A stretch of DNA of 64,000 nt from a virus (IMGVR_UViG_3300031555_004891); one strand, 5' to 3'. Shown: positions 13,246 to 37,609, counted from the stretch's first letter. Numbers and translations: made by a program. Notes: a model not told the origin generated them from the sequence alone.

Positions 13246-13821
13246 ATGAATTTAAAAACAACGTTAAAAGCTTATCCAAAACTTTCTCCATCAATCTTAT
13301 CTAACTATGTGACAAAAGAAGAATTGGAAGCAAAAGATTATGTAACCCATTCGCAATTAAGTGATATTTTGAAAGGGTTTGTAAGGGAAGTCGAAAATCC
13401 AGATCCTGCAGCTATCTATATAAGAAAGCTAGTAGATGGCGAATTAGTATGGGCTCCAGTTCACGATATACCTGGGGTAATAGATGGCGTGCTTTGTTAT
13501 GGAATGACAAAAACAACTACATTAGATGATGCTTAGCTTGCATTATTAAACCGTATGGAGCTTTCATATGATGTTAAGGAATATATGATCGAATATGCGC
13601 CAACATCAAATGGATATTTCTGGATATGCTCAACAAAACCTGTGCTTAAAGTAGAGGCTGATAATGGTTTGACTTATCAAGTAAATACGATTGAGCAAGA
13701 TGGTGTTTTACATTTAACTTATGAGGGTGAAGAATTTTATTTCTTCTGCTGCAGAACAACAAAACTTGCAGCTATACCTGGTGTTGCATATAAATTTAAG
13801 ATAACTTTAGAGGGAGAATAA
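13246..13821 (+). CDS. Fibre-associated protein, 191 aa (1 TAG)
   Basis: Two in-frame ORFs joined at TAG 13534. C-terminal beta-rich domain ending KFKITLEGE. Confidence 0.75.
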
Positions 13822-13822
13822 T

Positions 13823-14920
13823 ATGGCTGAAAATATTGTTACTCGTGTTCCATTGATCGGCGTTTTAACACCTGCTGATATGTGTGGATATGTAGTTGAG
13901 AGTAAGTATATCCAGGGTAGTTATATAGTTGTACAAACTATCGCTGAAAGAAATGCTCTAACTTCTAAAGCCACATATGAATACAATAATGTTCTGCAAA
14001 ATGGTAGTCCTGTTTATGTTGCAGAAGAAAAGAAAACTTACAGATATGAACTTACTGATAGAGGTCCTATGTGGGTTCTCGATACAGTAGATCTTACAGC
14101 TATTGATAAAGAGCTTAAAGAATTAGTAGCTACTGATACCGCATTAAGCGAAGAATTAGAAGATTTTAAATAGGTTGTAACTTTAAGCCTTAATAGTAAA
14201 GCAGATAAATCAGAATTAGCTAATTATGCTACAAAAGCTGATGTAACTGCTGCTGTTTCAGTTAAAGCAGATGATGTACTTTTCACTGATACTTATTTTG
14301 TAACAAAAGCAATTGGCAATTTTGTAGGTGATGGTACTGAAAGCTTGCAAGGAATGACTATCAGAGAAATTTTTGTTAAGATGTTAGGTGCAACATTGAA
14401 AGTAGTTTATGATTCTATAACAGATCAAATTATAGCAGAAGAATTACCTGTTTATTCTATTGATGCTGATGGTAATGTTACAGCTACACCTTATACTTAT
14501 ATTGAAATAGCTGCTGGCTCAGAAGTTGCTGGCGAAATTGTTAAACCTACTCAAAGTGGTTTCTATCAAATTAAAGATTCTAGTGGTAACGTTATTGAAT
14601 CCGGCTATCAGGAAGTGAGTGATGTTAATTTGAACCATGTTTATCATATTGCTTTTCCAGAAGCTGTAGATTTTAATGTCTCAGGTAGAGTTGACGAATA
14701 TGACGAGCTTGGTAAAAAATACAGCACAGTATGGGATGTTTCGACTGGAACTAAATTAATAACACTTACTGATGATTTGACTGTAATAGAAAGTCTTTAT
14801 GATACGCAATATTATGCTGAGATCAAAGCAGAAGAAGATGCGCTTCCTGGCTATAACATGTGGTTAATCGATCCAAATACTATGTCGCCAGGTAAAATAT
14901 ATAGATTTATTATAGAATAA
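13823..14920 (+). CDS. Fibre segment protein, 365 aa (1 TAG)
   Basis: Joined at TAG 14171. KADKSELANYATKAD coiled repeat. C-terminal domain is homologous to that of 32618..34522. Confidence 0.8.
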
Positions 14921-14933
14921 GGAGAATTGATAA

Positions 14934-15698
14934 ATGGCTTTATTAACTGGAAGTCAATATATCCACAGCGGTCTAGGTCCATTTGATGGTAAGATGCTCA
15001 CAGATAGCTATGATAAATTATTGATAGCAGATACGTTCCATGGTTATGCTTACAACGGTATGCTTGTAGCTGTTGCTAATCGAGTTGATACTTCTAACAA
15101 TGGTATTTATTATTTTTATGATAGTAAATGGAATGGTAGAGGTGCTCCCGATGTAACACTTACTAATAATTGGCATAAATTAGGAACTTTAGCTGAAATC
15201 AATGCTATAGCTGATAGAGTATCAGCATTAGAAGCTGGTGGAACTGGTTCTGGCGTAGATGAAACTGCAGTAAATGCGCTTATAGATGCTAGAATAGACG
15301 CATTAAAAGCTGAAATTGCACAAGCTGGCTACTTAACTGAAGCTGATTTAGAAGGCTATGCAACTGAAACTTTTGTAACAAATAAAATAGCTGAAGCTCA
15401 ACTAGCTGGGGAAGAAGTTGACTTAAGTGGTTATGCTACAAAAGATGACTTAAATGATTATGCTAAAACAGCAGATATTGAAGCAAATTATGCTACAAAA
15501 AATGATGTAGATGCTTCTAAAATAATTAACATCAGCTCTATGTTACCAAATGTTGGAGAAGTTGGATATTTTTATATAAATGAAACAGATGGTAAAACTT
15601 ATATTTGGGATGTTGAAAATAGTAAAATGGTAAATTTTGGAATACATTCCGTAAAAGTAATAGATGGCGGCGATGCAAATTCTGTATATGGCGCCTGA
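14934..15698 (+). CDS. Fibre segment protein, 254 aa
   Basis: N-terminal GPFD...YNGM...NNGIY domain, DLSGYATK repeats, C-terminal IDGG motif. Confidence 0.8.
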   Translation: MALLTGSQYIHSGLGPFDGKMLTDSYDKLLIADTFHGYAYNGMLVAVANRVDTSNNGIYYFYDSKWNGRGAPDVTLTNNWHKLGTLAEINAIADRVSALEAGGTGSGVDETAVNALIDARIDALKAEIAQAGYLTEADLEGYATETFVTNKIAEAQLAGEEVDLSGYATKDDLNDYAKTADIEANYATKNDVDASKIINISSMLPNVGEVGYFYINETDGKTYIWDVENSKMVNFGIHSVKVIDGGDANSVYGA

Positions 15699-15733
15699 TA
15701 ATATTTGACTAATAAATTATAGGAGATTTATAG

Positions 15734-17020
15734 ATGGCAGAAGTAAAAACTAAAATTCTTTTAAGAAATGATATTTCAGCAAATTGGGCTACAGTTAACC
15801 CTGTTTTAGGAAAGGGTGAAATGGGTGTAGAAATCGACACAGGTAAGTTTAAGTTCGGTGATAATGCAACTGAATGGAATCAACTTAATTATGCTGTTGA
15901 TTTATCTACTATCAATTTGGGTTCTGTAACTAACCATTATAGAGAAGCTGAATCAGCAGCTGCTCTTCCAACAACTGGTAATACTGTAGGCGATATCGGT
16001 GTTGTTAGAACAACTATTGCGGGTGATGCTAAATCTGTAACCACTTATGTTTGGGATGGTGAAAATTGGAAAGCAACTGATGGTAACTACAACGCAGAAA
16101 ATGTCTACTTTGATGAAGATATGATGGTAACCAAAGAAGTTGGTTACATTACTCTTACTGGTGGTAAGGGTACAATTCCTTCAACTGGTAAAAACCTCAA
16201 AGAAGTATTCGAAGCAATTTGGGTTAAAGAAGCAGATCCAACAAAAACAGATCCTTCTGTTACAGTATCTTTATCTGCAACCGATGGTAAAGAAGTTGGT
16301 ACAACCTTAACTGGTCTTTCTTATACAGCAACATACAGCGATGGTAATTATGAATTTGGTCCTGACCCCACTGGTGCAGATATTACTAAATGGGAAATTA
16401 CATCTACTGCTGGATATAGCAATACTGTAGAGCCTACTGAAGGAAATACAACTGTTGCTTCTAGTTTAAATAATGTTGCTTTAGCTGATTTACTCGTAGA
16501 AGATAGTACTAACTTTACAGTAAGTGCAAAAGCTACACATACTGGCGGTGATGTTCCTAAAACTAATAAGGGTAATGATTGCGCTGATACAACTAAACAA
16601 ATCGTAGAAGGTACAAAAACTGGTAAGTCAAGTGCTATCACTGGTTGGAGAAGAATGTTTATGGGTCCTGTGGCTAAAGACGCTGCTGTAGATTCTGCTC
16701 TTATCTGGGGAATTAATAGCGTAGCTAGTGCTAACAGAATTTCTGCGCAAGTAAGTACCTCTGCTCAAACTTTTACAGCTCCTGCTGGTACTGAAAAACT
16801 TCTTTTAGCTTTCCCTGCAAAATACACTGTTGGTAAGCAAGAATATTTCACAATGTCATGGGAAACTATTACAGACTTCGTAAAAGTATCTGATGCAATT
16901 AAAGTTGCTGATAAACGTGGTGGTGATAATGGTCTTGCCGATTACGAAGTTTGGGCTTACACACCTGCTGGTCCTTTGAAAGCAGACACCCAATTTAGAA
17001 TTACATTAAAGAATGGTTAA
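15734..17020 (+). CDS. Fibre segment protein with Mtd_N/hyaluronidase-N-like domain, 428 aa
   Basis: N-terminus ILLRNDISANW..NPVLGKGEMGVEIDTGKFKFGD...W..L.Y. Confidence 0.8.
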   Translation: MAEVKTKILLRNDISANWATVNPVLGKGEMGVEIDTGKFKFGDNATEWNQLNYAVDLSTINLGSVTNHYREAESAAALPTTGNTVGDIGVVRTTIAGDAKSVTTYVWDGENWKATDGNYNAENVYFDEDMMVTKEVGYITLTGGKGTIPSTGKNLKEVFEAIWVKEADPTKTDPSVTVSLSATDGKEVGTTLTGLSYTATYSDGNYEFGPDPTGADITKWEITSTAGYSNTVEPTEGNTTVASSLNNVALADLLVEDSTNFTVSAKATHTGGDVPKTNKGNDCADTTKQIVEGTKTGKSSAITGWRRMFMGPVAKDAAVDSALIWGINSVASANRISAQVSTSAQTFTAPAGTEKLLLAFPAKYTVGKQEYFTMSWETITDFVKVSDAIKVADKRGGDNGLADYEVWAYTPAGPLKADTQFRITLKNG

Positions 17021-17037
17021 TAAGAGGAGTATAACGA

Positions 17038-19002
17038 ATGGCACAAAAATTTGGTAATTTAGGAAGTTATGTTCCTGGAGAAGATGAAATCATAAAAACA
17101 GCTGACCTTATGACCTTCGGTAAATCTTTTGCTAGATCTAATGGTCAACCTCTTGATGAATCAGAAGTTTGGTATGATCTTGAAGCTCTTGAAGCTTATG
17201 CGTTAACAAACTCTGCTTATGTAGGTCAAAAAGTTGTTTATATCGACCTTGAAAATGCTAAAGTATACCAATACAGCATTGAGCTTGATGGTACACTTAA
17301 AGAAATTGGTACTGCACCTGTTGGTGATGGTAATACTGTTACTGAAGTTGCAGCTAAAGATAACACAATAGCTGTAGAATCTACTCAAACAAAAGATGGA
17401 GATGGTGCAGTTACAAATATTAAATATGACGTAGCTGTAAAAGTTTCTGCAGAAGAAGGTAACGCTGTTTCTGTTAAAGAAGATGGCTTATATGTTGCTA
17501 CTCCAGAAGCTTATGATGATACTGATGTTAAAGCTAGTATAAAAGCAAATGCTGATGCTATTGATGCAGTAGATGCTAGAGTAGATACAACTAATGGAAA
17601 TGTAACTGCTATTGATGGTAGATTACAAACAGCAGAAGGTGAAATAGATGCATTGCAAGAACAAATTAAAGGTTTATCTGGCGCAATGCATTTCATCGGT
17701 ACAGAAGATGCAGTTCCAGAAGATGTAACTGGTTATAAATCTGGTGATGTTATCGCTGTTGGTGATAAAGAATATGTATTTAATGGTACTGCATTTGTTG
17801 AGTTTGGTGATATTAGCGCTGAAGGCGAGAGATTAACTCAAGCAGAAGAAGATATCGATGCTATAGAAGCTGATATTTCTACTATTAACGAAAATCTTGC
17901 TAAGAAAGCTGATGCTACTCAAGTTTCTGCTGATATTAGTACAGCTAAGCAAGCAGCTATCGATGCAGCTGCAACTGATGCAACTACTAAAGCTAACACA
18001 GCAGAACAAAATGCTAAAGATTATGCAGATGCTGAGTTAAAGAAAGTTTCTGATGCTCATGGTGAAGATATCGCAGAATTAAATACTGCTATCGAAACTG
18101 CTGCAACAAATGCAGCTACTGATGCTACAACTAAGGCTAATGCAGCTCAAGCAGCAGCAGAAGCAACTGCAGCTAGCGCTTTAAGCGAAGCTAAGACTGA
18201 ACTTCAAGGTAGTATTACAGCTGTTGATAATAAATTCGCTGATTACACCAAAACAGTTGATTTGGTAGCAGAACATGAAGCATTAGATGCTGATATTAAA
18301 GCTAACACAGCTAAATTCGCTGACTATTACACAAAAACAGAAGTTGATACTACTGTAAGTGGAATCAATACTGAAGTTGGTAAGAAAGCTGACCAAACTG
18401 CTTTAGATGCTGTAGAAGGTAAAGTAGATGCTCTTGCTCAAATTAAGAGCGTAGAAGAAAGTGAGTTTAACATCACTGAAGCTGGTAAGTTAGAGGTTAA
18501 AGAAGTAGCTCAAGCTAAAGTTACTGGTTTAACTACTGCTTTAGCTGGTAAAGTAGATAAAGTTGATGGTTACGGTTTATTAGCTGACAGTGATAAAGCT
18601 AAGTTAGATAAATTAACTTTAAGCGGTGATGACCTTACAATTTCGGGTAGTGTTGAAGCTGGTAGCGTTAATAACCTTGATATATGGATTACTGGTAACA
18701 GAGATAGTTTTGCTGGCTTATTCTCAACTAGCAACCAAACTAAACTTGAAGGAATCGCTGATGGCGCTCAAGTTAACGTAATCGAACAGGTTAACCTTGC
18801 TGGTACTAAACTTGAAGTAAACAATAAAGTAGTTAACATAAATTATGGTACTGCAGACCTTGCTGGTGTTGTTAAATCAGCTACTGATATGAACACTGTA
18901 GCTATTAAATCTGATGGCACTATGGAAGTTAACAATATTTCTGTTGAAAAACTTGTTGTTCCTGAAGGTACTACTTTCATTCTTAACGGTGGTAACGCTT
19001 AA
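17038..19002 (+). CDS. Fibre segment protein, 654 aa
   Basis: N-terminal QPLD...AYVGQ domain, AATDATTKAN coiled-coil repeats, KVDKVDG..L / KLEGIADGAQVN motifs. Ends FILNGGNA. Confidence 0.85.
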   Translation: MAQKFGNLGSYVPGEDEIIKTADLMTFGKSFARSNGQPLDESEVWYDLEALEAYALTNSAYVGQKVVYIDLENAKVYQYSIELDGTLKEIGTAPVGDGNTVTEVAAKDNTIAVESTQTKDGDGAVTNIKYDVAVKVSAEEGNAVSVKEDGLYVATPEAYDDTDVKASIKANADAIDAVDARVDTTNGNVTAIDGRLQTAEGEIDALQEQIKGLSGAMHFIGTEDAVPEDVTGYKSGDVIAVGDKEYVFNGTAFVEFGDISAEGERLTQAEEDIDAIEADISTINENLAKKADATQVSADISTAKQAAIDAAATDATTKANTAEQNAKDYADAELKKVSDAHGEDIAELNTAIETAATNAATDATTKANAAQAAAEATAASALSEAKTELQGSITAVDNKFADYTKTVDLVAEHEALDADIKANTAKFADYYTKTEVDTTVSGINTEVGKKADQTALDAVEGKVDALAQIKSVEESEFNITEAGKLEVKEVAQAKVTGLTTALAGKVDKVDGYGLLADSDKAKLDKLTLSGDDLTISGSVEAGSVNNLDIWITGNRDSFAGLFSTSNQTKLEGIADGAQVNVIEQVNLAGTKLEVNNKVVNINYGTADLAGVVKSATDMNTVAIKSDGTMEVNNISVEKLVVPEGTTFILNGGNA

Positions 19003-19012: not shown

Positions 19013-19050
19013 AAAAATATGGTAGCGCTACAGTTTTTAGCGCTACCATA
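19013..19050. terminator. Intergenic hairpin (U tract only on the minus strand; possibly an mRNA stabiliser)
   Basis: TATGGTAGCGCTA / TAGCGCTACCATA perfect 13-bp stem. Confidence 0.55.
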
Positions 19051-19090: not shown

Positions 19091-21040
19091 ATGGCTACTG
19101 AAAAAACTATTTTCACAAGAATTATAAACAAAAACGATTCACTTGCTAACTGGACTACAAATGATCCTGTTTTAAAGCAAGGTGAAATCGCTCTTGCATA
19201 TATCGAAATTACTACTGCTGGCGGTGATATTGTTCCTACTTATTTGATGAAAGTAGGTCATGGTAACAAAAAATTCAGTGAATTAAAGTGGGTTGCTGCT
19301 CCTGCATCAGATGTTTATGCATGGGCTAAATCTGAACATTTAAGTGATGTAACTGAATTCTCAAGCTTAAGCTCAACTGTTAGCACTCAAGGTGGTGATA
19401 TTTCCACATTAAAAACTGATGTAGCTAACATCAAACAATTAACTGGTACAACTGGTGTAGCTGCTCAAATTACTGCAGCTATCGAAGCTTTAGATGTAAC
19501 TGATACAGCAGTAACAGGTCAGTTTGTAACAGCTGTTAGCGAAGCTGATGGTAAAATTACTGTTACTAGAGCAGCTCTTAAAGCTTCTGATATTCCTACA
19601 ATTACTTCTGGTAAAATTTCTGATTTCACAGCAGCTGTTCAAGATTTAATCGATGCTGAAAGAGCTCAAATTGATACTGCTATTTCAGGCGCTAAAACAG
19701 AAGTAACTAATGCTTATACAGCTGCTGATACAGCTCTTAAAACTGAGCTTAGCACAGAAATTGCAAAAAAATATGTAAAACCTTCCACCGGTATTGCTAA
19801 GACAGATTTAGCTAGTGGGGTTCAAGCATCTTTAGATCTTGCTGACAGCGCTCTTCAAGCTGCTGATTTAGCTGATTATGCTAAAACTGCTGATGTAGAA
19901 TCTGACATTGCTGCTGCTAAAACAGAAGCTCAAAACGCTGTAATTGGTGCTAGCACAAATGCTTCTAGCGCAGATACTGTTTATGGTGCAAAGAAATATG
20001 CAGAAGAAAAAGCTAATGCTGCACAAAGTGCTGCAACTACTGCAGCTGCTACAGACGCAACTACTAAAGCTAATAAAGCTTTAACAGACGCTAAAGCATA
20101 TACTGGTACTAGAGAAGCTGCTATTACTACTGCTTATGAAGCTTATGCTGATGAAGCTGAAGCTGCTGCAAACGATTACACTGACACTAAATTAGAGGCT
20201 TACTCAACTAAAGATGTTGCTGATGGCTTATATGATGCTAAAGGTGCTGCTGCAGCTGCTGAACAAGCTGCTAAAGATTATGCAGATGACTTAAAAGACT
20301 CAATTTTAGGTGAAGGTATTTCTAAAACTTTCGACACATTAAAAGAAATCCAAACATGGATTGAGGGTGATGGTGTTAACGCTACAGAATTATCACAAGC
20401 TATTGCTGCTGAAACTTCTGCAAGAGAATCTGCTGATGCTGCTTTACAAAAAGCTATTGATGGTCTTGAAGGCACAAACCATACTCACAGTAATAAAGCA
20501 TTATTAGATACTTATACCCAAACAGAAGTTGATTTAGCTGATGCTGTAAGTAAGAAACATAGTCACAGCAATAAAACTGTACTTGATGGAATTACTGCTG
20601 CAAAAGTAACTGCATGGGATGCTGCTGAACAAAATGCTAAAACTTACGCTGAAGAAAAAGCTTCTGCTGCACAAACTGCTGCTGAAGGTACAGCTAAATC
20701 TTATGCTGATGGCTTAATTGCTGACTTAGATGTAACTGTTACTGGAATGGGTGCTGGTAAAACTATCGCAACCTTAACAGAAGCTAATGGTAAGATTGCT
20801 GCTACTTTCCAGGATATTAAGATTACTAAATCTCAAGTAACTGATTTTGGTAGTTATGATGCAGCTGGTACTGCTCAAACAAAAGCAGATGCTGCATTAG
20901 CTAGTGCTAAAACTTATACTAATACAGAAGTTAATAAAGTTAAATCTACTGTATCTGGTTTAACTATGGATGATATTGGATCAGGTACTAACGCTGTTGT
21001 ATGGGTATTTGATTGCGGTACATCTACTACAGTTATGTAA
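19091..21040 (+). CDS. Fibre segment protein with Mtd_N-like domain, 649 aa
   Basis: TRIINKNDSLANW..DPVLKQGE...KVGHG, AKxYAD repeats, DTLKEI and HxHSNK motifs. Ends VFDCGTS. Confidence 0.85.
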   Translation: MATEKTIFTRIINKNDSLANWTTNDPVLKQGEIALAYIEITTAGGDIVPTYLMKVGHGNKKFSELKWVAAPASDVYAWAKSEHLSDVTEFSSLSSTVSTQGGDISTLKTDVANIKQLTGTTGVAAQITAAIEALDVTDTAVTGQFVTAVSEADGKITVTRAALKASDIPTITSGKISDFTAAVQDLIDAERAQIDTAISGAKTEVTNAYTAADTALKTELSTEIAKKYVKPSTGIAKTDLASGVQASLDLADSALQAADLADYAKTADVESDIAAAKTEAQNAVIGASTNASSADTVYGAKKYAEEKANAAQSAATTAAATDATTKANKALTDAKAYTGTREAAITTAYEAYADEAEAAANDYTDTKLEAYSTKDVADGLYDAKGAAAAAEQAAKDYADDLKDSILGEGISKTFDTLKEIQTWIEGDGVNATELSQAIAAETSARESADAALQKAIDGLEGTNHTHSNKALLDTYTQTEVDLADAVSKKHSHSNKTVLDGITAAKVTAWDAAEQNAKTYAEEKASAAQTAAEGTAKSYADGLIADLDVTVTGMGAGKTIATLTEANGKIAATFQDIKITKSQVTDFGSYDAAGTAQTKADAALASAKTYTNTEVNKVKSTVSGLTMDDIGSGTNAVVWVFDCGTSTTVM

Positions 21041-21137: not shown

Positions 21138-24100
21138 ATGCCTAAAATTATAACACAACATAGACGTGGAACAACTGAAGAATGGTTAGCCTCTGATGTA
21201 AAACCAAAAGCTGGTGAGCTCGTTATTGAAGAAACTGATCAGTGTATATCTAGAACAATTATAGATACTGAAACATCAGCTGAAACAACTGTAGATACTT
21301 AGGTTATCAAGGTTAAAATCGGTGATGGGGAACATTATTTCGCAGACCTTCCATATGTAACTTCGCAATCAGATAAAAATATCGAGCTTTTAACAAAAGA
21401 AATAAATGATATAATTAAAGCTGATACTGAGAATTCTGATAACACATATCATGCTAGCGAACTTAAAGATATAAGAATCGGTTATGATGGTATCGAACAT
21501 GATACTGCTGGTGATGCTGTTAGAGCTATTGGCGAAGATGTTTCAAGCTTGAGAGGTAGCTTACAAAAATTTATAAATGCTGATGCGGTTGATGGGTTAT
21601 TCTACGAAGACAGCAAGCTGTATTTGACAGCTGATGGCGTAATCGTATCGGATCCAGTAACTATTGTTGGAGGCTCTGGCGGAGGTGGTGGAACATCTAG
21701 CTCAATAAATATAAAATTAAAGAGCTTAAATGATTCTAATACATTCTCAGTAACAGAAGATAGTGCTGTAAATTTGAAATTTAATTTTATATCTGAAGAA
21801 GATGGCGAATCTACAGGCGAAGGTACTTGTATAATCATGGTAAATGGCTTACAGAAGAAACGCTATTCTATACCTCAGGGCGATAATACTTTAGATGTAA
21901 CTAGTTATCTAGCACCAGGTGATAACTCAATTAAAATAACCTGCTCAGATATCTATGGTAATTCTAGAACTTTAGTATACTCAATAACTGTAATTGAGTT
22001 AGAATTATCTTCTACATTTAACCCTTATGTTCCTTATAGTTCAGATATAGATTTTAGATATAAAGCTGTTGGTCTAGTAACTAAAACAGTGCATTTTGAA
22101 ATAGATGGAACTGCAGTTGGAAAAGCTACATTATCAGAAAGTTCTTCTGGTAAAGAAACAAAACAGGTAATTTCTGTAGCAAACTTATCTCATGGTGTAC
22201 ATAGATTAGATGTTTATGCTACAGCTGACCTTGATGGGTCTCCAGTAGAAAGTAATCATTTAATTTACGATGTGCTAATAACAGTAGATCAAGAAACAGC
22301 TCCTATGATAGCATCTATTTATGAAACAAAACAGATAAATGAGGGTGATATGGTATCTATTCCATACCTCGTTTATGATCCAAATGATGCTATCTGCAAT
22401 GTAACTCTAGAAATAACTTATATAGAAAACGGTGAAACAAAACTCTATAGTTCAAAAAATGTAGAAGTAGATCAATCTCTACAAACCTGGGCTACTAGAG
22501 ATTATCCAGCTAAAAATTCTGTAATCTTTTCTATTAAATACGAAAATTTAGTAAAGAGTCATACTGTAAAAGTTGTTGAAAGTAATATTAAAGTTTCTGC
22601 TGAAGAAGGTGCTTCCTTATTCTTAAGCGCTAAGGGTAGAAGCAATAATGAAGCTAATCCGAATGTTTGGGAATACACTAACCCAGAAACTAATAACACT
22701 ATAACTACAGATTTCAATGATTTTAACTGGTCATCAAACGGCTGGGTTTTAGATGATAATAAAGACACTTGCTTAAGAATAAATGGTGGTGCTACTGCTG
22801 TTGTTAATTTAAGTCCTTTTGCAAATCTAGATGATCAACTTAATATTTATGGTAAAACAATTGAGTTTGAATTTGCAGTTAGAGATGTTAATGACCGTGA
22901 AACTGTAATTATAGATTGCTCTACAACTAAAGATGTTACTTATGATAAGACTGAAGAAGATGCAGAAGGTAACAAAACTACTACAACTGTAACAGAAAAG
23001 CGAACAATTGGTATAAAAGCTACAGCAGATACTGCTATGCTAGGTACAGCTTTAGATCAAGTAACTTGCAATTACAGAGAAAGTAAAAAAGATGATCTTG
23101 AAAAAATAAGAATATCTTTTGTAATTGATAGTAAAGTTGCTGGTTCAGATAGATTTATCTATTCTTATTTAAATGGTGTTTTATCTAGCGTATTTAGATA
23201 TACTGAGCAAGATAGCTTTAACTCAAATACAGCTATAAAGCTCGGTGACGTTGGTTGTACTTTAGATTTATATACTATTCGAGTATATAACAAAGCTTTA
23301 ACTGCTAAAGAAATACTTAATAACTATATAGCAGATACTACAGATATCGGTACTAAACTTGAGGTTTATGCTGATAATGATATATATGATAAATATGGAA
23401 ATCTTTCTTATGAAAAATTAAAAGGAAAGATACCTACTATCACCTTTATCGGAAAAATGCCTGCATATAAAGGTGATAAGAGAATCGTTAAGATGGATTT
23501 TGAAAATCCGTTTGATAAGTCTAAAAATTTCAGTAATGTGTATGGTGGACCTATTGATGTGCAAATTGATGTTCAAGGTACATCTTCGCAATATTATGTT
23601 CGTAAAAACTGGAAAATAAAACTTGGTTACGATTCTGAGGGTAATAAGGTTAAAAATTTCCCTGCTTATCAACACATGGACAACGAATTACCAGCTAAAG
23701 TATTCTGTATCAAAGTAGACTATGCAGAAGGTACTGGTACTCATAACACCCAAAACGCTAACTTTGTAGAAACTTTATATTATAATAAAATACCTGCTCA
23801 ATATGATACACCTGAAGTGCGTACAACAATCACAGGTTTCCCTTGCGTAATATTTGAGAGAGCTGATTTCGATAGCGAGCCTGTTTTCTCTTCTAAAGGT
23901 AATTTTAACTTCGATAAGGGTGCAGAAGACGCATTTGGCTTTAATAGTGATTATGATGTAGAATGCTGGGAATTCTGTAACAATACATCTAAACCATGTA
24001 ATTTCTTAGGTGAAATTGATTCTTCTAAAAATTGGTTAGATGATTTCGAGCCTAGATACACACCATATGATTTTGATAGACTCGAAGAATTAGAAGATTT

Positions 24101-29022: not shown

Positions 29023-29328
29023 ATGGCTACAAAAATAATATTAACTCATGATATCGAAGCTAATTGGAATATCGATAAGAGTAATGTTTAGACTTTAGAA
29101 CCAGGTAGAGTTATTATATATGACTCAGAAGTTTCTAAAGACGCTACTGGTAATGACATTATAGCTAAATTACCAGAAGGTCGAGCTAAACCATATAAAC
29201 ATGCTAGAATTAAAATTGGGGATGGCGTAACACCCATCTCTGATTTACCATTTGCGACAGACGCTGCTATAGAAGATTATTTTCAAGCAGAAAAGGGTAT
29301 TATATATGCAGATGGTGGAAGAATATAA
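29023..29328 (+). CDS. Minimal Mtd_N-like adaptor, 101 aa (1 TAG; missing from the ORF track)
   Basis: SD GGGAG. MATKIILTHDIEANW...IIYD...RIKIGDGVTPISDLPF...IIYADGGRI. TAG 29089. Confidence 0.8.
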
Positions 29329-29409: not shown

Positions 29410-31872
29410 ATGGCGCAAAGAGAAATTAAGACTCGTGTCATAAATAAACATGACACAGCAGCTAACTGGAATAATGCTTCGTCTTTCATACCGAAAAAAG
29501 GTGAGCTTATTATCTATGATACAGATAGTACTCATACCTATGAAAGATTTAAGATTGGTGATGGTGAAACTAACGTAGTAGAATTACCTTTTGCTACAGC
29601 AGGCGAAGCTGATAAATTAAAAACAGCTAGAACGATTTCACTCACAGGTGATGTAACTGGTAGTACTACCTTCGATGGTAGTGGTAATGTTTCGATAACA
29701 GCTACTGTTGCAGATAACTCACATAATCACACCAATTATGTAAACCAAAATGCTTTTAGCAATGTAAAAGTTGGTTCTACTACAGTTGCTGCTGATACTA
29801 CTACTGATACTTTAGAATTAGTAGCTGGAAGCAATATTACAATAACACCTGATGCAACAAATGATAAAATTACTATTGCAGCTACAGATACTGTTTATAC
29901 ACACCCTACACATACTGCAGCTGCAAGCGGTTTATATAAAGTAACAGTAGATAATAAAGGTCATGTAACTGGTACTTCTGCTGTTGCTAAATCTGATATA
30001 ACTTCTTTAGGTATTCCAGCTCAAGATACAACTTCTTTTACTATCACAGCTGCTGCTAGCGATGATGATGTTGTTGTACTTAGTGGAACAAATGGTACAA
30101 ATAAAGTTACTTATAGCGCTAGCCATGCTACAAAAGGTCCAAGCACAACTGCAAGTACAACAAAAGGTGCTACTGCTGATGTAACCGTAACAGCTGGTGC
30201 AGGAGCTAAAACAATAAAAGTTCCTAAAGTAACAGTAGATAAATATGGTCACACAACTGGGTTGACTGAGTAGACTTTATCTATCACAGTACCTGCTACA
30301 CCTACAGCATTAAAAAATCCTAATGCTATAACTATCGGTGGAAAAACTTATGATGGTAGCTCTGCTGTATCTGTAACAGCTGCAGATTTAGGTATTGATA
30401 ATGCATTACACTTTATCGGTACAACTACAACAGGAATTTCTGATAATTCTACGACAGCGTCTGTTACTATTGATGGTGCTAGCCATACTGCAATAGCTGG
30501 TGATGTTGTTTTATATAGCAATAATGAGTACGTATTTGATGGAAGTAAATGGTTAGAATTAGGTGATGGATCAAGCCACGCCTTAAAAACTGTAACAATC
30601 ACAGCTGGTAATGGTTTGACTGGCGGTGGTGATCTTAGCACTAATAGAACATTAGCTGTTGGTGCTGGTAATGGTATCACTGTTGCCGCTGATAGCGTTT
30701 CAGCGAAAGCCGGTAATGGTATTACTGTAGACTCTACTGGTATTAATCACGCAGATACCTCATCACAAGCAAGCGTAACAGCAAGCGGCAGAAAATATGT
30801 TACAGGTGTTACACTCGATACATATGGACACGTTACAGGCTTAACTACAGGAACAGAAACTGTTACAGATACAGGTGCTACTAGTATAACAACAAGCGGC
30901 GATGGTAATGCGGTGACGAGCGGTTCTTATGACAGCTCAACTAGAAAAATAACTTTAACTAAAGGTAATTCATTCTTACCACTTTCCGGTGGTTCATTGG
31001 ATACTAATGCAAAAATCAAGCTTAATACTTATGGAAGACGTTTCTTGGAAATTAGTGGTAACAATATTACTGCTGATATGAGTAATGAAACTGGCGGTTG
31101 GGCAGGTAGTTTTGCTGCAGTAAAAGATCCTGCAGGTGATACGACTACAATGCTTGGTTGGTATGGAAACGCTTCAGGATTAAATAATATCTATATGGGT
31201 GGTACTTATAGCGATCCATATATGAGCATGACAAAAGCTGGTCAGTTTAGTTTTAAAAATAGACCTACTATTGATGGTGTTGCAGTTGCATTACAGGGTG
31301 AAGTAACTGGACCAACCGGTCCTACAGGAAGTACTGGTGCGACTGGCCCTACTGGCCCTGCGGGTGGTACTGGTGGAACTGGTCCTCAAGGACCCACTGG
31401 TGCGACTGGTCCTGCTGTTGCTTATTATGCTACCGGTACTAGCAGTAGTACATCTGCTGCATGCGTAGCTTCATGCTCAGGATTTTCTTTAGCAACTGGT
31501 AGAGTTGTTGCTGTTAAATTATGCACAGCACATAGTAGCGGAACTATGACTTTAGATGTAAATAGTACTGGTGCAAAATCATGTTAGTATGGTGGCTCAA
31601 CTACTATTCCTGCTCTTGATGTTAATAAAGTTTATCAATTTGTATACGGTGGAAGTTATTATCAATTAATTGGTGAAATCGATACTGATTCTAATAGCGA
31701 TACAAAAGTTAGCTATGTATCAACAACAACTTCTGCCGAATATCCATTAATATTTAAATACTCAACAGGTACGACTACAACAGCTGCTAATGTTAGATTT
31801 AATAGCGCAATAACAATTAATCCATCTACAGGTAAACTAACAGGTGTTGTTATTGATGACGGCGAACTTTAA
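29410..31872 (+). CDS. Tail fibre protein, 820 aa (2 TAG), with Mtd_N-like domain and short collagen-like stretch
   Basis: Joined at TAG 30271 and 31585. ADKLKTARTISLTGDVTGS..FDGS, VTVD.YGHVT and GPTGxT repeats. Ends VIDDGEL. Confidence 0.85.
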
Positions 31873-32612: not shown

Positions 32613-32617
32613 AATAA

Positions 32618-34522
32618 ATGGCAACAAAAATCGAATATACAAATACAAATATATACGAACAATACGAGCCTATAATCTGGAAGGATAACGAAACGCCATT
32701 AAACTCTGAAAACTTAAATCATATTGAGCAGGGTATTTCTAACGTTTCTAAAGTTGTTCTTAATTATTATAGTAGAACTGTTGATCTAGAATCAGAAGTC
32801 TTTGTAGTAGTAGAAGAAAATGGTTTATTGCAACCTAAATCAGAAATTAAATTATTAAGATCTGATGTTACTGCTCTTCAAAAAGATTTAGGCGAAGTTC
32901 ATAACGCACTTTTAGTAGAAATGATAGATTCGAAAGGTAATGCTGAAATGGTGCAGCTCGGCGAAGCTGTTAGAGAATTACTTATCGAATTTGCTAGCAT
33001 TTTAACTGAGTTAGATAGAATTGAAGAGGTTAAAGGTCTTCAAGATGAAATAAAAAACACAACTGCAGGTTTAACAGAAGAAGAAATAATCAGAAGAAAC
33101 GCTGATAACGAAATTAACGCTAAAATAGCTGAATTAGAAGCAGCTTTAGGTACTTCTGGAACTAATACAACTGCTAAATTTGCGGAAATAGAGGAAGCTT
33201 ATAAAGCAGCAGATGCAGAGTTATCTAAGAAAGTTTAGGATGAAATTCAACCAAAAATTGATCAAGTAAGTGCTGATGTTGCTACATTAAGTACCACTCA
33301 CGAAGCAGATAAAACAGCTCAAGCTTCTATTGATGCTACTCAAGATAGTAAAATAGGTGTATTAGAAACATCAATAAAAACTAAAGCAGATAAAGCTACA
33401 ACTTTAGCTGGTTATGGAATTACAGATGCATATACATAGGTAGAAGTAAATAGCTTTATCGATATTATTAATGAAAATTTAATAGATAATTACGCTACAA
33501 AAGAAAATGTAAGCGAAGAAATAGATAAAATAGATTTAAGTCCATACGCTACTAAAGAAGCTTTAACTTTAAGTACTACCATAACAGAAGATTTAGTTAC
33601 TACTACTGGTGTTGGAACGCTTCCAGCAGGTACAAATCTTAAAGGTATGACTTTGATAGATGTAATTAAAAAATTACTTTGTCAAAATTTAGGTGTAGCT
33701 ACTTATCCAACTTTCACAGAGCCTTCTATAAATGTTGTCTTAGATGAAACAACAGCCATATATGGTACATCTTTCACCACTACAGGTCATGTCACAGCTA
33801 ATAGAGGTTTAATTAATCCAGCATATTCTGTTGGTGGAAGCGCTTATAGAGCTGGTGAAGTTATTAAATATACTGTTAACGGTGAAGATCAAGTTTCTAA
33901 CGAACTAACTTATGATTTCAATCTTACTATTGATAAAGTCGAAGCTGGAATAAATGAAGTCAAAGTATCTGTTACGTTTGCTCAAGGTCCTCAGCCATTA
34001 GATAGTAATGGTGTTAATTATGATAGTCCATATCCAGAAACAACTATAGAAGAAATTTTAACAGTAAATGGTTTAGTTATGGCTTATAGTGGGTCGAGTG
34101 GAGATTCTGTAAGTCAAAATTCTACAGAAATTATAACTGATGATACTGCTTATAATAAATCTGGTTTCTTCGAAGTTGCTGACGAATCTGGTAATGTAAC
34201 AGAATCTGGTTATCAAAGCGTTGTTCCTGCTGTAGAAGTAGATCCTGAAACTTATGCACCTTTAGCTGGATAGGTTGTATTAATCCCAGAATCTCAAAAG
34301 CTTATTGGAATTAAGTATTGGGATGAATTAGGTCAAGCATGGAGCTGGTATGGTAATATATCTGCAGAAGATTCTTTGACTCACGAATGGAAAAATGTTG
34401 GAACATAGGAAATAGAAATAACAGAAGGAACTAGTGTTACTTATACAAAATATGAATTTGATATATCAGATCCATACGCTGTATTTGGCGCAGAATCTTA
34501 CTGGAGATTTGTAATAGAATAA
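32618..34522 (+). CDS. Fibre segment protein, 634 aa (4 TAG)
   Basis: W..N.TPLNSENLNHIEQGI N-terminus, coiled coil, KATTLAGYGITDAYT(Q) fibre repeat. Ends YWRFVIE at TAA 34520. Confidence 0.8.
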
Positions 34523-34536
34523 GGAGAATTATATAG

Positions 34537-36606
34537 ATGGCTATAAATACAGCTAAAGGTTCGATGACTCAATATGCTTATACTAAAGCTGGTCCTTTCG
34601 ATTCTAAAATGTTAGTTAAAACAAAAGCTGAATTAACGCAAGCAGCTACCTGGATTCCTCAAGGTGGGTCTATGCCAGTCCATTATGCTGGAATGATTGT
34701 TTCAGTTAATGCTGATACTGTTACTGAGAATAATGGTATTTATATTCTTAAAAATGCAGCTTTTAGTAATGAGAGCAATTGGGTAAAATTATGCGATTTA
34801 GATGCTTTAGATGCTTTAAAAGCAGAATTAGAAGAAAAAATCGCAAACGAAGCTGGTCAAAAAGGTGATCAAGGTGATCCTGGTAAATCAGCTTACCAAA
34901 TATGGGTAGAAGCTGGAAATGAAGGCAATGAAGAAGCATTTTTAGCTAGTTTAATCGGTGCACAAGGCCCTCAAGGTGAAACAGGACCTCAAGGCGAACA
35001 AGGCCCTCAAGGTGTGCAAGGTGAGCAAGGTATTCAAGGTGAAACAGGACCAACAGGTCCAACTGGACCTCAAGGCCCTAAAGGTGATACTGGTGCAACT
35101 GGACCTCAAGGTGATATTGGTCCTACAGGTCCTCAAGGTCCTACTGGTGACAAAGGTGAAAAGGGTGAACCTGGCGTATCTAGCATTAAATTATCGGATA
35201 TAAAATCAGATTGGTCTACTGTTATTGCTGGAGATATTTATTTAACCCAAAAAGTTAACGAATTTACAACATTAACTGGTGAGCAAAACGCAGTTGGTGT
35301 TATGGTTATCGTTAGAGCAATTGATGCTGATAATCAAGCTAATTCTCAAGTTGATTATATCGGTAAACTTACTGGTGAGCAAGGTCCTAAAGGTGATAAA
35401 GGCGATAAGGGTGATATAGGCCCTCAAGGTCCTACTGGCGCTCAAGGTCCTAAGGGTGAACAAGGAACAGGTGTTAATATAAAAGCATCAGAAACTGATT
35501 GTACTGAACTTGGTGATGCCTATATTGATTCCGAAGGTAATATCCAAATTGTAACATCTGTTAGCCCTAAATATTTCACAAATGGTGGTCAAGTTAAAGG
35601 TCCTAAAGGCGATAAGGGTGATAAAGGTGATAAAGGCGACACTGGTGCACAAGGCCCCACTGGTCCTGCAGGAAGTGACGCAACAGTTACAAAAGAAGCA
35701 GTAGAAAATGTTTTAACTGGAATTATCACAACTCACGAACATTATGATGATAAAATTAAATTATCAGCTGATATTTGGACTGATAAGACTATTGGTCATA
35801 TAGAAGGTACAGCTAACGCACCTAAGAAAGTTGCTAGTAAAGATGATACCTTAAAAACATTATTTACTAACATATTTGGTACTGTAGAAGATGATAGTAC
35901 TGATTTGGTGCATGCACCAACTATAACTAAAGTTTCTATTGGAAGTTCTTCTTATGAGTATGGTACTAAATTAACAACCTTACCAGTAACTATTAGCAAA
36001 AAATCAGGTTATTATGAGTATGGACCTACTGTTGCTGATCCTAGCTGGACTTTCAGCGGTACTGTAACTGGTTTTTCTGGAGCAACTTTTGATGGTTCAA
36101 AAATAACATTAAATGGCAACTTTGTTGTTGGTCAAACTTCTTCTTTAAAGTTGGATGTTTCTGGATCTTATACATACCTTAGCACAATAAAGACTGCTAC
36201 AACAAAGATGGGTAATGCTACTGATCAAAAACTTGTATCAGGCACTACTAGTGGATCAGGAACATTTAATCCTACAGGTGTTAAATATGTTTACTGGGCT
36301 ACATCAACAACAACTGCAACACCAACTTCTTGGAAAAAATACAGTACTGGTACAACATCAATAACAGATTTACAATTATCATGTAAAGCTAATGAATATA
36401 TTTGGGTGGCTTGCACAGATAATAAAACTAACTTCTATGCATGGAACGATGCTAGCGGTAAGTATAATACAGATCCATTACCTACAACAAAAACTGGTAC
36501 AGCATCTATAGTAAATGCACAGGAAGCTTCTGTTAGTGGATATTATTTATATCGTACAACAAACGCTATGCTTCAAGCAGTAGATACTAAATTTAAGTTA
36601 GCATAA
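34537..36606 (+). CDS. Collagen-like fibre segment protein, 689 aa
   Basis: GPFD N-domain, GKSAYQIW motif, long Gly-X-Y runs. Confidence 0.85.
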   Translation: MAINTAKGSMTQYAYTKAGPFDSKMLVKTKAELTQAATWIPQGGSMPVHYAGMIVSVNADTVTENNGIYILKNAAFSNESNWVKLCDLDALDALKAELEEKIANEAGQKGDQGDPGKSAYQIWVEAGNEGNEEAFLASLIGAQGPQGETGPQGEQGPQGVQGEQGIQGETGPTGPTGPQGPKGDTGATGPQGDIGPTGPQGPTGDKGEKGEPGVSSIKLSDIKSDWSTVIAGDIYLTQKVNEFTTLTGEQNAVGVMVIVRAIDADNQANSQVDYIGKLTGEQGPKGDKGDKGDIGPQGPTGAQGPKGEQGTGVNIKASETDCTELGDAYIDSEGNIQIVTSVSPKYFTNGGQVKGPKGDKGDKGDKGDTGAQGPTGPAGSDATVTKEAVENVLTGIITTHEHYDDKIKLSADIWTDKTIGHIEGTANAPKKVASKDDTLKTLFTNIFGTVEDDSTDLVHAPTITKVSIGSSSYEYGTKLTTLPVTISKKSGYYEYGPTVADPSWTFSGTVTGFSGATFDGSKITLNGNFVVGQTSSLKLDVSGSYTYLSTIKTATTKMGNATDQKLVSGTTSGSGTFNPTGVKYVYWATSTTTATPTSWKKYSTGTTSITDLQLSCKANEYIWVACTDNKTNFYAWNDASGKYNTDPLPTTKTGTASIVNAQEASVSGYYLYRTTNAMLQAVDTKFKLA
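34948..35175 (+). repeat. Collagen-like Gly-X-Y coding repeat
   Basis: GAQGPQGETGPQGEQ...; further runs near 35375-35470 and 35600-35670. Confidence 0.85.
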
Positions 36607-36619
36607 GGAGAAATAAGAA

Positions 36620-37609
36620 ATGGCAAGTAATGTAATTAATTCAGGTTTAAACCTTATGAATACTGCATATAATGGTGCTGGTGGTATAGTTTTATCAGGT
36701 GATGCAGTTAAAGGTGGTTATTTTGTAACTGACACTATTGCGAATATTCCTTCTTGGTCTAATGTTGAAGGTACTTTATGCTATTGTACAGGTGATTCTA
36801 AATTCTATCAATACGATGGATCTAATTGGAAAGAAGCAGCTTTTTCAGGTAGCAATGGTTCAGGTATTTCTACTGTAAATAGTAAACAATATTCTGGTGG
36901 TATTTTTACTCCAATAAATTATCCTTCTGATACCACTGTAAAAGGTGGTGGTTATTTAGCTACATCTGTATTTGCTGATGATGGTGCAACTTCATATAAT
37001 AGTTCTGAATTTATTAAACCACGTGGTATAAGTGTAAATGGCGCAGAAGCTAGTGCTGATAGTACTAACTATTATAGACCAGTTATTGCTAAAGCTGATG
37101 GATCTATTGCTGAATTACCAGACTTAACTATTTATGCACCTGTTGCAGCTGGTAAGGAAGGTGAATTTGTTGTTGCTGACGAAAATGGTAAAGCTGTTTG
37201 GTCTAACGTGACAAAAGAAACAATTGGCTTAGATAAAGTAGAAAATAAATCTGCAACTGATTTAAAATCTGAGTTTAAAGGTACTATAGCAGCTGGTGAT
37301 ACTGGTTTTACAACTGGCGGTGATGTTTATACTAAATTAAATGAAAAAGCTAATACATCACATAGTCACGCTGCTTCTGACATAACATCAGGTACATTAG
37401 CTATAGATAGAATTCCTACAGGTACTAGCAGCACAACTGTAGCTATTGGTAATCATGGTCACGATAGTGTATATTCAAAATTAGGACACACTCATACAGG
37501 ACATTCAGGCGAAGCTACTGGTACAGCTAAAAAAGTTTGGACCTATACTGGCGATGGTAAATATGCTTGGACTTCTGGCTATGTAGATGATGGTGATTTA
37601 ACTGAATAA
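36620..37609 (+). CDS. Fibre segment protein, 329 aa
   Basis: IGLDKVENKS and HSHAASDITSGTL..RIP fibre motifs. Ends YVDDGDLTE. Confidence 0.8.
   Translation: MASNVINSGLNLMNTAYNGAGGIVLSGDAVKGGYFVTDTIANIPSWSNVEGTLCYCTGDSKFYQYDGSNWKEAAFSGSNGSGISTVNSKQYSGGIFTPINYPSDTTVKGGGYLATSVFADDGATSYNSSEFIKPRGISVNGAEASADSTNYYRPVIAKADGSIAELPDLTIYAPVAAGKEGEFVVADENGKAVWSNVTKETIGLDKVENKSATDLKSEFKGTIAAGDTGFTTGGDVYTKLNEKANTSHSHAASDITSGTLAIDRIPTGTSSTTVAIGNHGHDSVYSKLGHTHTGHSGEATGTAKKVWTYTGDGKYAWTSGYVDDGDLTE

What the first reader, a model, noticed from the sequence alone, without database searches (positions are those of the whole stretch)
13246..37609. Plug-and-socket pattern in fibre genes: each C-terminus predicts the next gene's N-terminus
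Seen, junction type 1: a terminal hydrophobic-(D/N)-(G/C)-G peptide is always followed by a gene starting with an Mtd_N-like domain. The cases are 14934 VIDGG to 15734, 17038 ILNGG to 19091, 19091 VFDCG to 21138, and 29023 YADGG to 29410. Seen, junction type 2: a C-terminal beta domain ending (F/Y)-(K/R)-hydrophobic is followed by a gene with a different N-domain (P(F/L)D...Y.G..V, or G(S/G)Y.V..TIA). The cases are 13246 KFKITL to 13823, 13823 YRFIIE to 14934, 15734 FRITL to 17038, 32618 WRFVIE to 34537, and 34537 KFKLA to 36620. Four type-2 donors also share a preceding T..(I/V)G.......(T/N)(L/I)..(I/V/L)F-like neck. Established: Mtd_N is the N-terminal domain of the Bordetella phage Mtd tip protein. 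Inference: about a dozen separate trimers assemble head to tail, in gene order, into very long or branched fibres through two reusable docking pairs, which would make segments exchangeable.
Basis: partly seen in the sequence, partly recalled or inferred. Interest (0 to 1): 0.85.

Follow-up and report, generated by a model that had tools for sequence, protein, structure and literature searches.

The report
Plug-and-socket joints between phage fibre proteins
In a large uncultured phage, the tail end of each fibre protein predicts the front end of the protein encoded next; one such pair (a short ...x-G-G-x-A peptide and an Mtd_N/HylP-type cap) recurs across unrelated phages and is modelled as a real joint, so gene order may be usable to read how long fibres are put together.

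Summary

**Type 1.** All 4 genes ending in a hydrophobic-x-(G/C)-G peptide are followed by a gene that starts with an Mtd_N/HylP-type cap.
- This is not local chance. In 80 IMG/VR loci seeded only on the cap, about half of the upstream genes end in [DN]GG, against about 1% background.
- It also holds in a TM7 phage, an Arthrobacter phage and BPP-1 itself (Bbp9 ends LGGIA just before Mtd).
- A 3+3 complex model lays the peptide as an added beta-strand on the cap (ipSAE 0.83, best of 3 controls 0.00).

**Type 2.** All 5 genes ending in a beta-domain with an aromatic-basic-hydrophobic last strand are followed by a gene with a 'PxD...YxG' N-domain.
- The pairing is conserved in relatives and moves as a block.
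- Natural single-chain fusions leave out exactly the joint.
- Binding at this junction was not tested.

**Limits.** Assembly in gene order, into chains of up to seven segments, is plausible but not shown.

**Novelty.** Multi-protein fibres are known. I found no paper describing this peptide/cap joint. Earlier AI notes of this scan recorded the same DGG-to-Mtd_N pairing on other DNA (giant viruses and phages).

The parts
1..1092 (+). 3' part of a 457-aa gene that starts 282 nt before the window (G000:15605-16978). It has an Mtd_N-like N-cap with no plug upstream, and it ends ..VDDGELTE, the third C-end class.
13246..13821 (+). g13246, 191 aa (1 TAG). Type-2 donor ending ..YKFKITLEGE. First gene of proposed chain 1.
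13823..14920 (+). g13823, 365 aa (1 TAG). N-domain of the G(S/G)Y.V..TIA kind, neck motif at aa 161-184, and an A-type C-domain ending ..IYRFIIE.
14934..15698 (+). g14934, 254 aa. 'PFD' N-domain (aa 1 to about 100), shaft, and a small beta-hairpin knob. The plug is at aa 237-252 (nt 15642-15689), with core V-I-D-G-G-D-A.
15734..17020 (+). g15734, 428 aa. Mtd_N socket (Pfam aa 10-43; modelled interface aa 1-13, 17-18, 20-21, 23 and 48). Neck at aa 133, and a B-type C-domain ending ..QFRITLKNG.
17038..19002 (+). g17038, 654 aa. N-domain of the P-L-D...Y-V-G-Q kind, long Ala/Thr-rich shaft, and plug ..FILNGGNA.
19091..21040 (+). g19091, 649 aa. Mtd_N-like socket and a plug of the x-C-G subtype (..VFDCGTS..).
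21138..28328 (+). g21138, 2396 aa (5 TAG). Mtd_N-like socket of the 'HRRGTT.EW' subtype and BspA-type LRR repeats. It has no plug, so it is the proposed distal end of chain 1.
29023..29328 (+). g29023, 101 aa (1 TAG). Consists of an Mtd_N-like socket plus the plug ..IYADGGRI and nothing else, so it looks like a coupler. No plug lies upstream of it.
29410..31872 (+). g29410, 820 aa (2 TAG). Mtd_N-like socket, a collagen stretch, and the ending ..VVIDDGEL (third C-end class).
32618..34522 (+). g32618, 634 aa (4 TAG). Its N-end is of a different kind (..W.D.ETPL..ENLN.IE.GI). Neck at aa 329, and an A-type C-domain ending ..YWRFVIE.
34537..36606 (+). g34537, 689 aa. 'PFD' N-domain, collagen repeats (Pfam 64.3 bits), and a B-type C-domain ending ..TKFKLA.
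36620..37609 (+). g36620, 329 aa. N-domain of the GGY.V.DTIA kind, ending ..YVDDGDLTE. Proposed distal end of chain 3.
28331..29020 (+). g28331, 229 aa. Weak matches to DUF4376 and PHROG 1348 (tail-fibre-like). It lies in the cluster but carries none of the end motifs.

Best explanation
The region is the tail-fibre cluster of a TAG-recoded phage with a large genome (the record is 102.8 kb, estimated 62% complete). Its proteins are fibre segments with standardised ends.

**Type-1 joint**
- The last 10-16 residues of one segment (two hydrophobic residues, then D, N or another residue, then G/C-G, then x, then a small residue) act as a plug.
- The plug pairs as an extra beta-strand with the first strand of the Mtd_N/HylP-type cap of the next segment.
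- The small residue after G-G packs on the two conserved tryptophans of the cap.
- This is modelled as three plugs on three caps around one axis, so the two trimers would stack end to end.

**Type-2 joint**
- A C-terminal beta-domain ending in an aromatic-basic-hydrophobic strand probably receives the always-N-terminal 'PxD...YxG' domain of the next gene.

**Reading the genes in order gives three candidate chains**
- Chain 1: 13246 > 13823 > 14934 > 15734 > 17038 > 19091 > 21138 (the LRR giant).
- Chain 2: 29023 > 29410.
- Chain 3: 32618 > 34537 > 36620.

**What is shown and what is inferred**
- Shown: the motifs, their adjacency here and in other phages, block-wise exchange, and a passing complex model for one type-1 joint.
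- Inferred: binding at the other eight junctions, cognate specificity, chain order, and how the chains attach to the virion.
For: **Type 1**
- In the whole record, 4 of 4 plug-ended genes precede a cap gene.
- Unrelated phages show the same pairing. The TM7 phage has it twice (..NIDGGTP and ..TIDGGSV). In Arthrobacter phage Persistence the 70-aa gp30 ends ..FDGGSAA before gp31. Streptococcus HylP shows it partly (..ILDGRRDR).
- In BPP-1, Bbp9 ends ..DLGGIA directly before mtd.
- In 80 IMG/VR loci seeded on the cap alone, 35 of 69 distinct upstream C-ends have [DN]GG in the last 15 residues, and about 10 more carry variants.
- Over all gene pairs in those loci and four INPHARED loci: motif with cap next 27, motif without 8 (3 of these are gene-calling errors), no motif with cap 35, neither 638.
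- Complex model of 3x g14934 aa 170-254 with 3x g15734 aa 1-75: ipSAE 0.83 (runs 0.84, 0.77, 0.83), best of 3 controls 0.00. In calibration, 58 of 80 solved complexes and 2 of 110 mismatched pairs reached the mark. At least 93% of contacts were shared between runs, and partner pLDDT was at least 80. The interface is exactly the conserved peptide against cap strand 1 and W18/W48.
- By sequence, the PDB holds only HylP for this cap, so the pass is unlikely to come from a remembered complex.
- Plug and socket subtypes co-vary: x-C-G goes with the 'HRRGTT.EW..VP..GE' caps in at least 8 distinct loci.

**Type 2**
- 5 of 5 junctions in the window follow the rule.
- Across 208 distinct gene pairs of this phage group the table is [[17,9],[4,178]], Fisher p 4e-15. 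This includes non-syntenic contexts L137, L141 and L145.
- Junction blocks are replaced as a unit in two lineages: window against L002, and L134 against L133.
- The PFD domain starts within the first six residues in all 43 homologues of 176-1311 aa.
- P0142 equals g34537 aa 1-310 joined to g36620 aa 95-328, so it lacks exactly the proposed joint. P0129 joins the front of g14934 to the back of g17038.

**Literature**
- The Mtd beta-prism is 'presumably' the attachment to the tail fibre protein (PMC10743442).
Against: - No experiment supports any of this, and only one of the nine junctions was modelled.
- No non-cognate plug/socket pair was tested. Four to six similar sockets in one virion could cross-react, which would give branched or mixed assemblies rather than gene-order chains.
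- The rule is not universal. About a third of cap genes in the survey, and both caps examined in Ralstonia phage RSP15, have no plug upstream. Two caps in this genome also lack one.
- One plug-ended protein in relatives precedes a gene with a non-Mtd_N N-end.
- Much of the type-2 evidence comes from syntenic relatives and is therefore not independent.
- The last-strand motif is a generic beta-strand pattern. YRFVI-type ends occur with both N-domain variants, so there is no strict one-to-one code.
- Neither type-2 domain has a Pfam, PDB-sequence or Foldseek match.
- A seven-segment chain would have about 4,900 residues per strand, which has no precedent that I know of.
Confidence: 0.6

Rival explanations
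1. The joints are real but promiscuous. Any plug fits any Mtd_N cap, and likewise for type 2, so the proteins form a branched or stochastic fibre network. Gene adjacency then reflects co-inheritance rather than assembly order.
For: - The same motif pair is used 4 times in one genome, and the caps are mutually similar.
- g29023 and g19091 carry both a socket and a plug, and two sockets have no upstream plug.
- Branched multi-RBP assemblies are known in large phages (papers listed, for example PMC9700779 and PMC10253068).
Against: - Plug subtypes co-vary with socket subtypes across lineages: x-C-G with the giant's cap, x-G-G with the others.
- The modelled 3:3 coaxial geometry gives one partner per end.
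Confidence: 0.2
2. There is no end-to-end binding at the type-2 junctions. Each of those proteins is an independent fibre or receptor-binding protein anchored by its own N-domain to the baseplate or a hub. The C-end/N-end correlation comes only from inheritance of contiguous DNA blocks (old two-gene cassette duplications and recombination inside genes).
For: - Most type-2 evidence is from syntenic relatives.
- The C-domains are sizeable beta-domains of the sort that could bind receptors.
- There is no strict 1:1 pairing of variants.
- No complex model or fold assignment exists for these domains.
Against: - The association also holds in non-syntenic contexts (L137, L141, L145).
- Breakpoints repeatedly fall inside genes and spare the junction.
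- The natural fusion P0142 removes exactly the C-domain plus the N-domain and keeps both shafts in one chain.
- Gaps at these junctions are only 1-17 nt, with the same GGAGAA ribosome site at most of them.
Confidence: 0.2
3. The ..x-G-G-x-A peptide serves the protein that carries it, for example as a trimer cap, a folding element or a processing site. Its position before Mtd_N genes would then be a by-product of gene order in a widespread cassette.
For: The peptide is near the C-end rather than at it, and is often doubled in other phages. Some plug-like ends are followed by other genes.
Against: - The carriers are otherwise unrelated, ranging from 60 to about 790 aa. The only shared feature is the peptide and the cap gene that follows.
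- The model places the peptide in the cap, with controls at 0.00.
Confidence: 0.05

Closest known systems
Bordetella phage BPP-1: Mtd trimers on the ends of the tail fibres (Mtd_N beta-prism, Pfam PF18454; PDB 1YU0)
   Same: The socket is the same kind of N-terminal cap. The literature presumes that it attaches Mtd to the fibre protein (PMC10743442). The upstream fibre gene bbp9 ends ..DLGGIA directly before mtd.
   Different: BPP-1 has one joint in a podovirus. Here the pair is used four times in series, with subtypes, and alongside other joint types. The BPP-1 Mtd sequence itself was not picked up by my cap profile in the PDB search. The plug peptide is not described in the papers I could search.
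Streptococcal prophage hyaluronidase HylP (PDB 2C3F, 2YVV, 2DP5, 3EKA, 6X3M)
   Same: These are the only solved proteins matched by the cap profile, with E from 2e-11 to 7e-9 over residues 1-55. The cap sits at the N-end of a trimeric fibre-like protein.
   Different: The upstream Tal-like protein of phage Javan478 ends ..ILDGRRDR, which is only half the motif. HylP is a single enzyme fibre, not a link in a chain.
T4 long tail fibre (gp34-gp35-gp36-gp37)
   Same: Separate proteins encoded side by side join end to end, with the proximal part encoded first and the receptor-binding part last (established knowledge, not tested here).
   Different: Each T4 interface is unique, and one link is a monomeric hinge. 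Here short standard end modules are reused and shared by unrelated phages.
Branched receptor-binding-protein assemblies (CBA120 TSP1-4, G7C gp63.1/gp66, Klebsiella phages phiK64-1/RaK2 and phiKp24; Latka et al. 2019, PMC6872550)
   Same: Many fibre or spike proteins in one large phage are attached to one another through conserved N-terminal anchor domains and short conserved peptides.
   Different: Those systems branch through T4 gp10-like docking domains on an anchor protein. No such domain was found here by Pfam, and the modelled joint is coaxial, C-end to N-end.

Membership tests
Pfam PF18454 Mtd_N | Profile match at or above the gathering score (26.3 bits) | tested here: met
   g15734 scores 32.3 bits. 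g21138 scores 22.3, below the cut-off. g19091, g29023 and g29410 have no Pfam hit at E<=0.01, but match a profile of 70 unrelated Mtd_N N-termini with E 3e-9, 1e-4 and 5e-6.
Pfam PF18454 Mtd_N | Located at the extreme N-terminus of a fibre or receptor-binding protein | tested here: met
   All five start within residues 1-10 of their proteins.
Pfam PF18454 Mtd_N | Trimeric beta-prism fold | tested here: inconclusive
   Three copies were folded together with pLDDT of at least 80 in the complex job. No coordinates were compared with 1YU0 or HylP.
Serial (T4-like) multi-protein tail fibre | Separate proteins physically joined C-end to N-end | tested here: inconclusive
   One junction (g14934/g15734) passes a complex model with controls. 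Eight junctions were not modelled, and there is no experiment.
Serial (T4-like) multi-protein tail fibre | Gene order equals assembly order | not testable with these tools
   Only adjacency statistics and natural fusions bear on it.
Branched RBP systems with T4 gp10-like docking domains | gp10-like (XD) docking domains on an anchor protein | tested here: not met
   No such Pfam or PHROG match in any of the 16 cluster proteins.
Collagen-like phage fibre | Gly-X-Y repeats matching Pfam PF01391 | tested here: met
   g34537 scores 64.3 bits over 4 stretches. g29410 scores 19.3 bits, below the cut-off.
BspA-type LRR adhesin | PF13306 LRR_5 repeats | tested here: met
   g21138 scores 235.5 bits over 4 stretches.

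The most novel reading that the evidence does not exclude
Tailed phages (and, according to earlier notes of this scan, some giant viruses) share a small set of orthogonal end-to-end connectors: at least the x-G-G and x-C-G plugs for two Mtd_N cap subtypes, the beta-domain/'PxD' pair, and a '..KYSDF'/'GCWYL.TDT' pair seen in relatives. Together these would form a docking code that fixes the order in which up to seven trimeric segments self-assemble into one fibre. Fibre architecture could then be read from gene ends, and segments would be naturally interchangeable.
Probability: 0.3. Interest if true: 0.85.

Novelty: new variant of a known kind. Interest (0 to 1): 0.68.

Why it matters
Which fibre protein sits on which is unknown for almost all uncultured phages and for many cultured ones, and working it out normally needs cryo-EM.

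- A short, searchable C-terminal peptide that names its partner would let annotators order fibre genes into assemblies. They could also separate adaptors, such as the 101-aa g29023 or the 60-170-aa plug-only proteins of other phages, from receptor-binding tips.
- It would help explain why mosaic breakpoints fall inside fibre genes.
- It gives a concrete answer to a point left open since the BPP-1 work, namely what the Mtd N-terminal prism holds on to. This can be tested with two small constructs.
- It also bears on how receptor-binding parts can be moved between phage scaffolds.

Tried and rejected
- **Alternative codes.** Table 11 and table 4 were rejected because the genes are split.
- **The search for related loci.** The search with single fibre proteins gave 1 and 0 loci. 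I used a degenerate DNA pattern instead.
- **Unbiased scan for plug ends.** The probability that a cap follows a given plug is therefore estimated only from this genome (4 of 4) and from loci of this phage group (about 30 of 37).
- **Rosetta-stone search.** I looked for internal copies of the PFD domain and found none; it starts within the first six residues in all 43 homologues.
- **Pfam and PDB-sequence searches of the PFD domain.** Nothing was found.
- **AlphaFold2 models and Foldseek.** The models were of the PFD domain (pLDDT 79, first 13 residues below 50) and the A-type C-domain (pLDDT 68). Neither gave a PDB match at E<=0.001. The top weak row for PFD was an Acinetobacter phage tailspike (E 2.5), which is not evidence.
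- **Covalent lock idea.** I considered an isopeptide bond between the plug's Asp/Asn and the invariant Lys of the cap. That Lys is not in the modelled interface and stays invariant in caps without plugs, so I dropped the idea.
- **Literature.** Five searches and one paper read found no description of the plug. One search was wasted on an ambiguous term.
- **tRNA.** No suppressor tRNA lies in the window.

Full report
**What the region is**

The window is part of a 102,762-bp IMG/VR virus record, window = C1:15887-79886, estimated 62% complete.
- All large genes lie on the + strand, G+C is about 32%, and GGAG ribosome sites precede the genes.
With TAG=Q the frames are 13246-13821, 13823-14920, 21138-28328, 29023-29328, 29410-31872 and 32618-34522. 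Under tables 11 and 4 these are fragmented.
- The stop codons in use are TAA (18) and TGA (3).
- PHROG and Pfam matches identify the block 13246-37609 as tail-fibre genes. They include tail fibre families, collagen repeats in g34537, BspA-type LRR in the 2396-aa g21138, and Mtd_N in g15734.

**Checking the observation**

There are three corrections.
1. The 'terminal' peptide is near-terminal; 2 to 9 residues follow it.
2. Only g15734 reaches Pfam's Mtd_N cut-off. The other four caps are homologous by alignment and by a profile I built from unrelated caps.
3. The two type-2 acceptor patterns align with each other and are probably one domain superfamily.

Real homology, not only short motifs, links several ends:
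- g14934 N with g34537 N (E 8e-8);
- g13823 C with g32618 C (1e-5);
- g15734 C with g34537 C (1.5e-6).

In the whole record of 94 ORFs, the plug motif lies near a C-end in four genes only, and all four precede a cap gene. Six genes carry a cap. Shuffling the 16 cluster genes gives p about 0.002 for type 1, and no shuffle in 200,000 reached all nine junctions. The classes were defined after the fact, so these numbers are optimistic.

**Is type 1 more than a local pattern? Yes.**

A tblastn of the g15734 cap found 461 cultured-phage records. I looked at the gene upstream of the cap in five unrelated phages.
- The TM7 phage has two consecutive plug-to-cap junctions (..NIDGGTP, ..TIDGGSV).
- Arthrobacter phage Persistence has a 70-aa protein ending ..FDGGSAA before its cap-bearing hydrolase.
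- A streptococcal prophage has a half motif before HylP.
- Ralstonia phage RSP15 has none.
- In BPP-1, the source of the family name, the fibre gene bbp9 ends ..DLGGIA immediately before mtd.

A degenerate DNA pattern for the cap core then retrieved 80 IMG/VR loci.
- Among 69 distinct upstream C-ends, 35 have [DN]GG within the last 15 residues and about 10 more have close variants. The motif is often doubled, as ..DGG.A.T.Y......DGG.A.
- Over all gene pairs in these loci and four INPHARED loci, the motif occurs in about 45% of genes that precede a cap gene and about 1% of the others.
- The carriers of the plug are otherwise unrelated, from 60 to about 790 residues.

**How type 1 probably works**

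I folded three copies of g14934 residues 170-254 with three copies of g15734 residues 1-75. Each was supplied with an alignment (A5, 18 rows; A4, 54 rows).
- The score was ipSAE 0.83 (runs 0.84, 0.77, 0.83) against a best control of 0.00.
- In the tool's calibration, 58 of 80 solved complexes and 2 of 110 mismatched pairs reached the mark.
- The runs share at least 93% of contacts, and partner pLDDT is at least 80.
- The tool warns that its calibration counts hold only roughly here, because I used my own alignments and more than two chains. A pass supports binding but does not show it.
- The interface is g14934 residues 237-250 and 252, which is exactly the conserved peptide. It meets cap residues 1-13, 17-18, 20-21, 23 and 48.
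- In this model the peptide lies alongside the cap's first strand. The small residue two places after G-G sits on the nearly invariant tryptophans.
- Each plug copy pairs with one cap copy around a common axis, which would stack the two trimers end to end.
- The cap profile matches only HylP structures in the PDB, so a remembered complex is unlikely.

**Sub-specificity**

In the window and in every relative examined, the plug before the giant LRR protein is of the x-C-G kind (..FDCG....FNCG....IDCG..), and that protein's cap is of the 'HRRGTT.EW...P..GE' kind. The x-G-G plugs precede 'R-N-D...N-W' caps. A separate pattern scan for the giant-type cap found further loci with ..DCG.. upstream. 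One unrelated phage has a more canonical cap preceded by ..IDGGTP. This is what ordered assembly would need, but cross-binding was not tested.

**Type 2**

Relatives of this phage keep the same order of ends while the middles differ widely in length. Examples are 254 against 180 aa and 654 against 965 aa (L003, L133, L134, L136, L139, L143, L146, L148, L154, L157).
- The rule also holds where the neighbourhood is different (L137/L147, L141, L145).
- Over 208 distinct gene pairs the association is strong ([[17,9],[4,178]], p 4e-15). The loci are related, so this is not an independent sample.
- Two pairs of close relatives differ by replacement of the junction as a block. These are window against L002, and L134 against L133. 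In each..YRFI(IE/TN) followed by 'M-A-L...G-P-F-D' is exchanged for ..ITIR(V/L)VI.. followed by '..N-(F/Y)-E...R-K-P-(F/L)-D', and the rest of the downstream gene is unchanged.
- The pairing is not a strict code, because YRFVI-type ends also precede the second variant.
- The 'PFD' domain starts within the first six residues in all 43 longer homologues. It combines with at least four C-end classes.
- Natural single-chain versions exist. P0142 is g34537 residues 1-310 (74% identity) joined to g36620 residues 95-328 (44%). It omits exactly the donor C-domain and the acceptor N-domain. P0129 joins the front of g14934 to the back of g17038. These fit two segments of one fibre, though they could also be ordinary mosaicism.
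- Neither domain has a Pfam, PDB-sequence or Foldseek match.

**What remains open**
- How the chains start. Two caps have no plug upstream: g29023 and the gene at the window's 5' edge.
- What the third C-end class ..DDG(E/D)L(TE) does. It occurs on three proteins and is followed by unrelated genes.
- Why one plug-ended 552-aa protein in L133/L134 precedes an N-end that is not Mtd_N.
- Whether the assemblies are linear or branched.

**Comparison with what is known**

End-to-end fibres made of several proteins are established (T4). So are branched assemblies anchored by N-terminal domains (CBA120, G7C, phiK64-1/RaK2, phiKp24; PMC6872550, PMC9700779, PMC10253068, listed). The Mtd N-terminal prism is presumed to hold Mtd on the fibre (PMC10743442).

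What I did not find in the papers searched is the partner peptide, its breadth across phages, or its serial reuse with subtypes. I therefore class this as a new variant of a known kind.

Earlier AI notes of this scan (e1-5530632, e1-5493815) report the same DGG-to-Mtd_N pairing on other DNA, including giant viruses. My tests were made independently of them and agree.

**Verdict**
My own estimates are about 0.8 that type 1 is a joint, about 0.5 for type 2, and about 0.4 for the full gene-order chains.

Noticed in passing
whole window: TAG is read as an amino acid throughout. Many late genes carry in-frame TAGs (up to 14 in 42975-45059), and stops are TAA or TGA only. No tRNA gene, so no suppressor, lies in the window.
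   Followed up: partly
1-1092, 29410-31872, 36620-37609: Three fibre proteins end in a third conserved peptide, ..(V/I)DDG(E/D)L(TE). It resembles the plug but is followed by unrelated genes. Homologues elsewhere (P0139, P0142, P0143) end the same way. It may be a chain end or a plug for the two orphan caps.
   Followed up: partly
L003:8497-9989, L133:10001-11562, L134:10001-11541, L143, L146: Relatives show a further end/start pair that is absent from the window. Proteins ending ..(K/T)Y(S/G/I)(D/S/G)F.. are followed by a gene whose N-domain contains G-C-W-Y-L.T-D-T.
   Followed up: partly
19018-19050 and 21079-21111: Strong 13-bp hairpins sit in the long gaps (88 and 97 nt) of two type-1 junctions. 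The second has a T-run on the + strand. Type-2 junctions have gaps of only 1-17 nt, mostly with a GGAGAA ribosome site.
   Followed up: partly
21138-28328: The giant 2396-aa protein has an Mtd_N-like cap and C-terminal BspA-type LRR repeats. Its middle matches only PHROGs of unknown function (14959, 24896). Relatives have versions of 2,061 to 3,495 aa.
   Followed up: partly
37659-40892: Two paralogous proteins (E 6e-42 to each other) follow the fibre genes directly.
   Followed up: no
homologues P0045-P0116 of g14934: Many phage fibre proteins found through the shared shaft repeat end in yet another conserved peptide family (..ALDGDEVSY..GVIENGSY..NAEEGAY). This may be another docking end.
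   Followed up: no
14934-15233 (model m9f5fdd258cad): In the AlphaFold2 model of the PFD N-domain, the first 13 residues are low-confidence (pLDDT below 50) while the rest is confident. This would fit a segment that orders only on docking.
   Followed up: no
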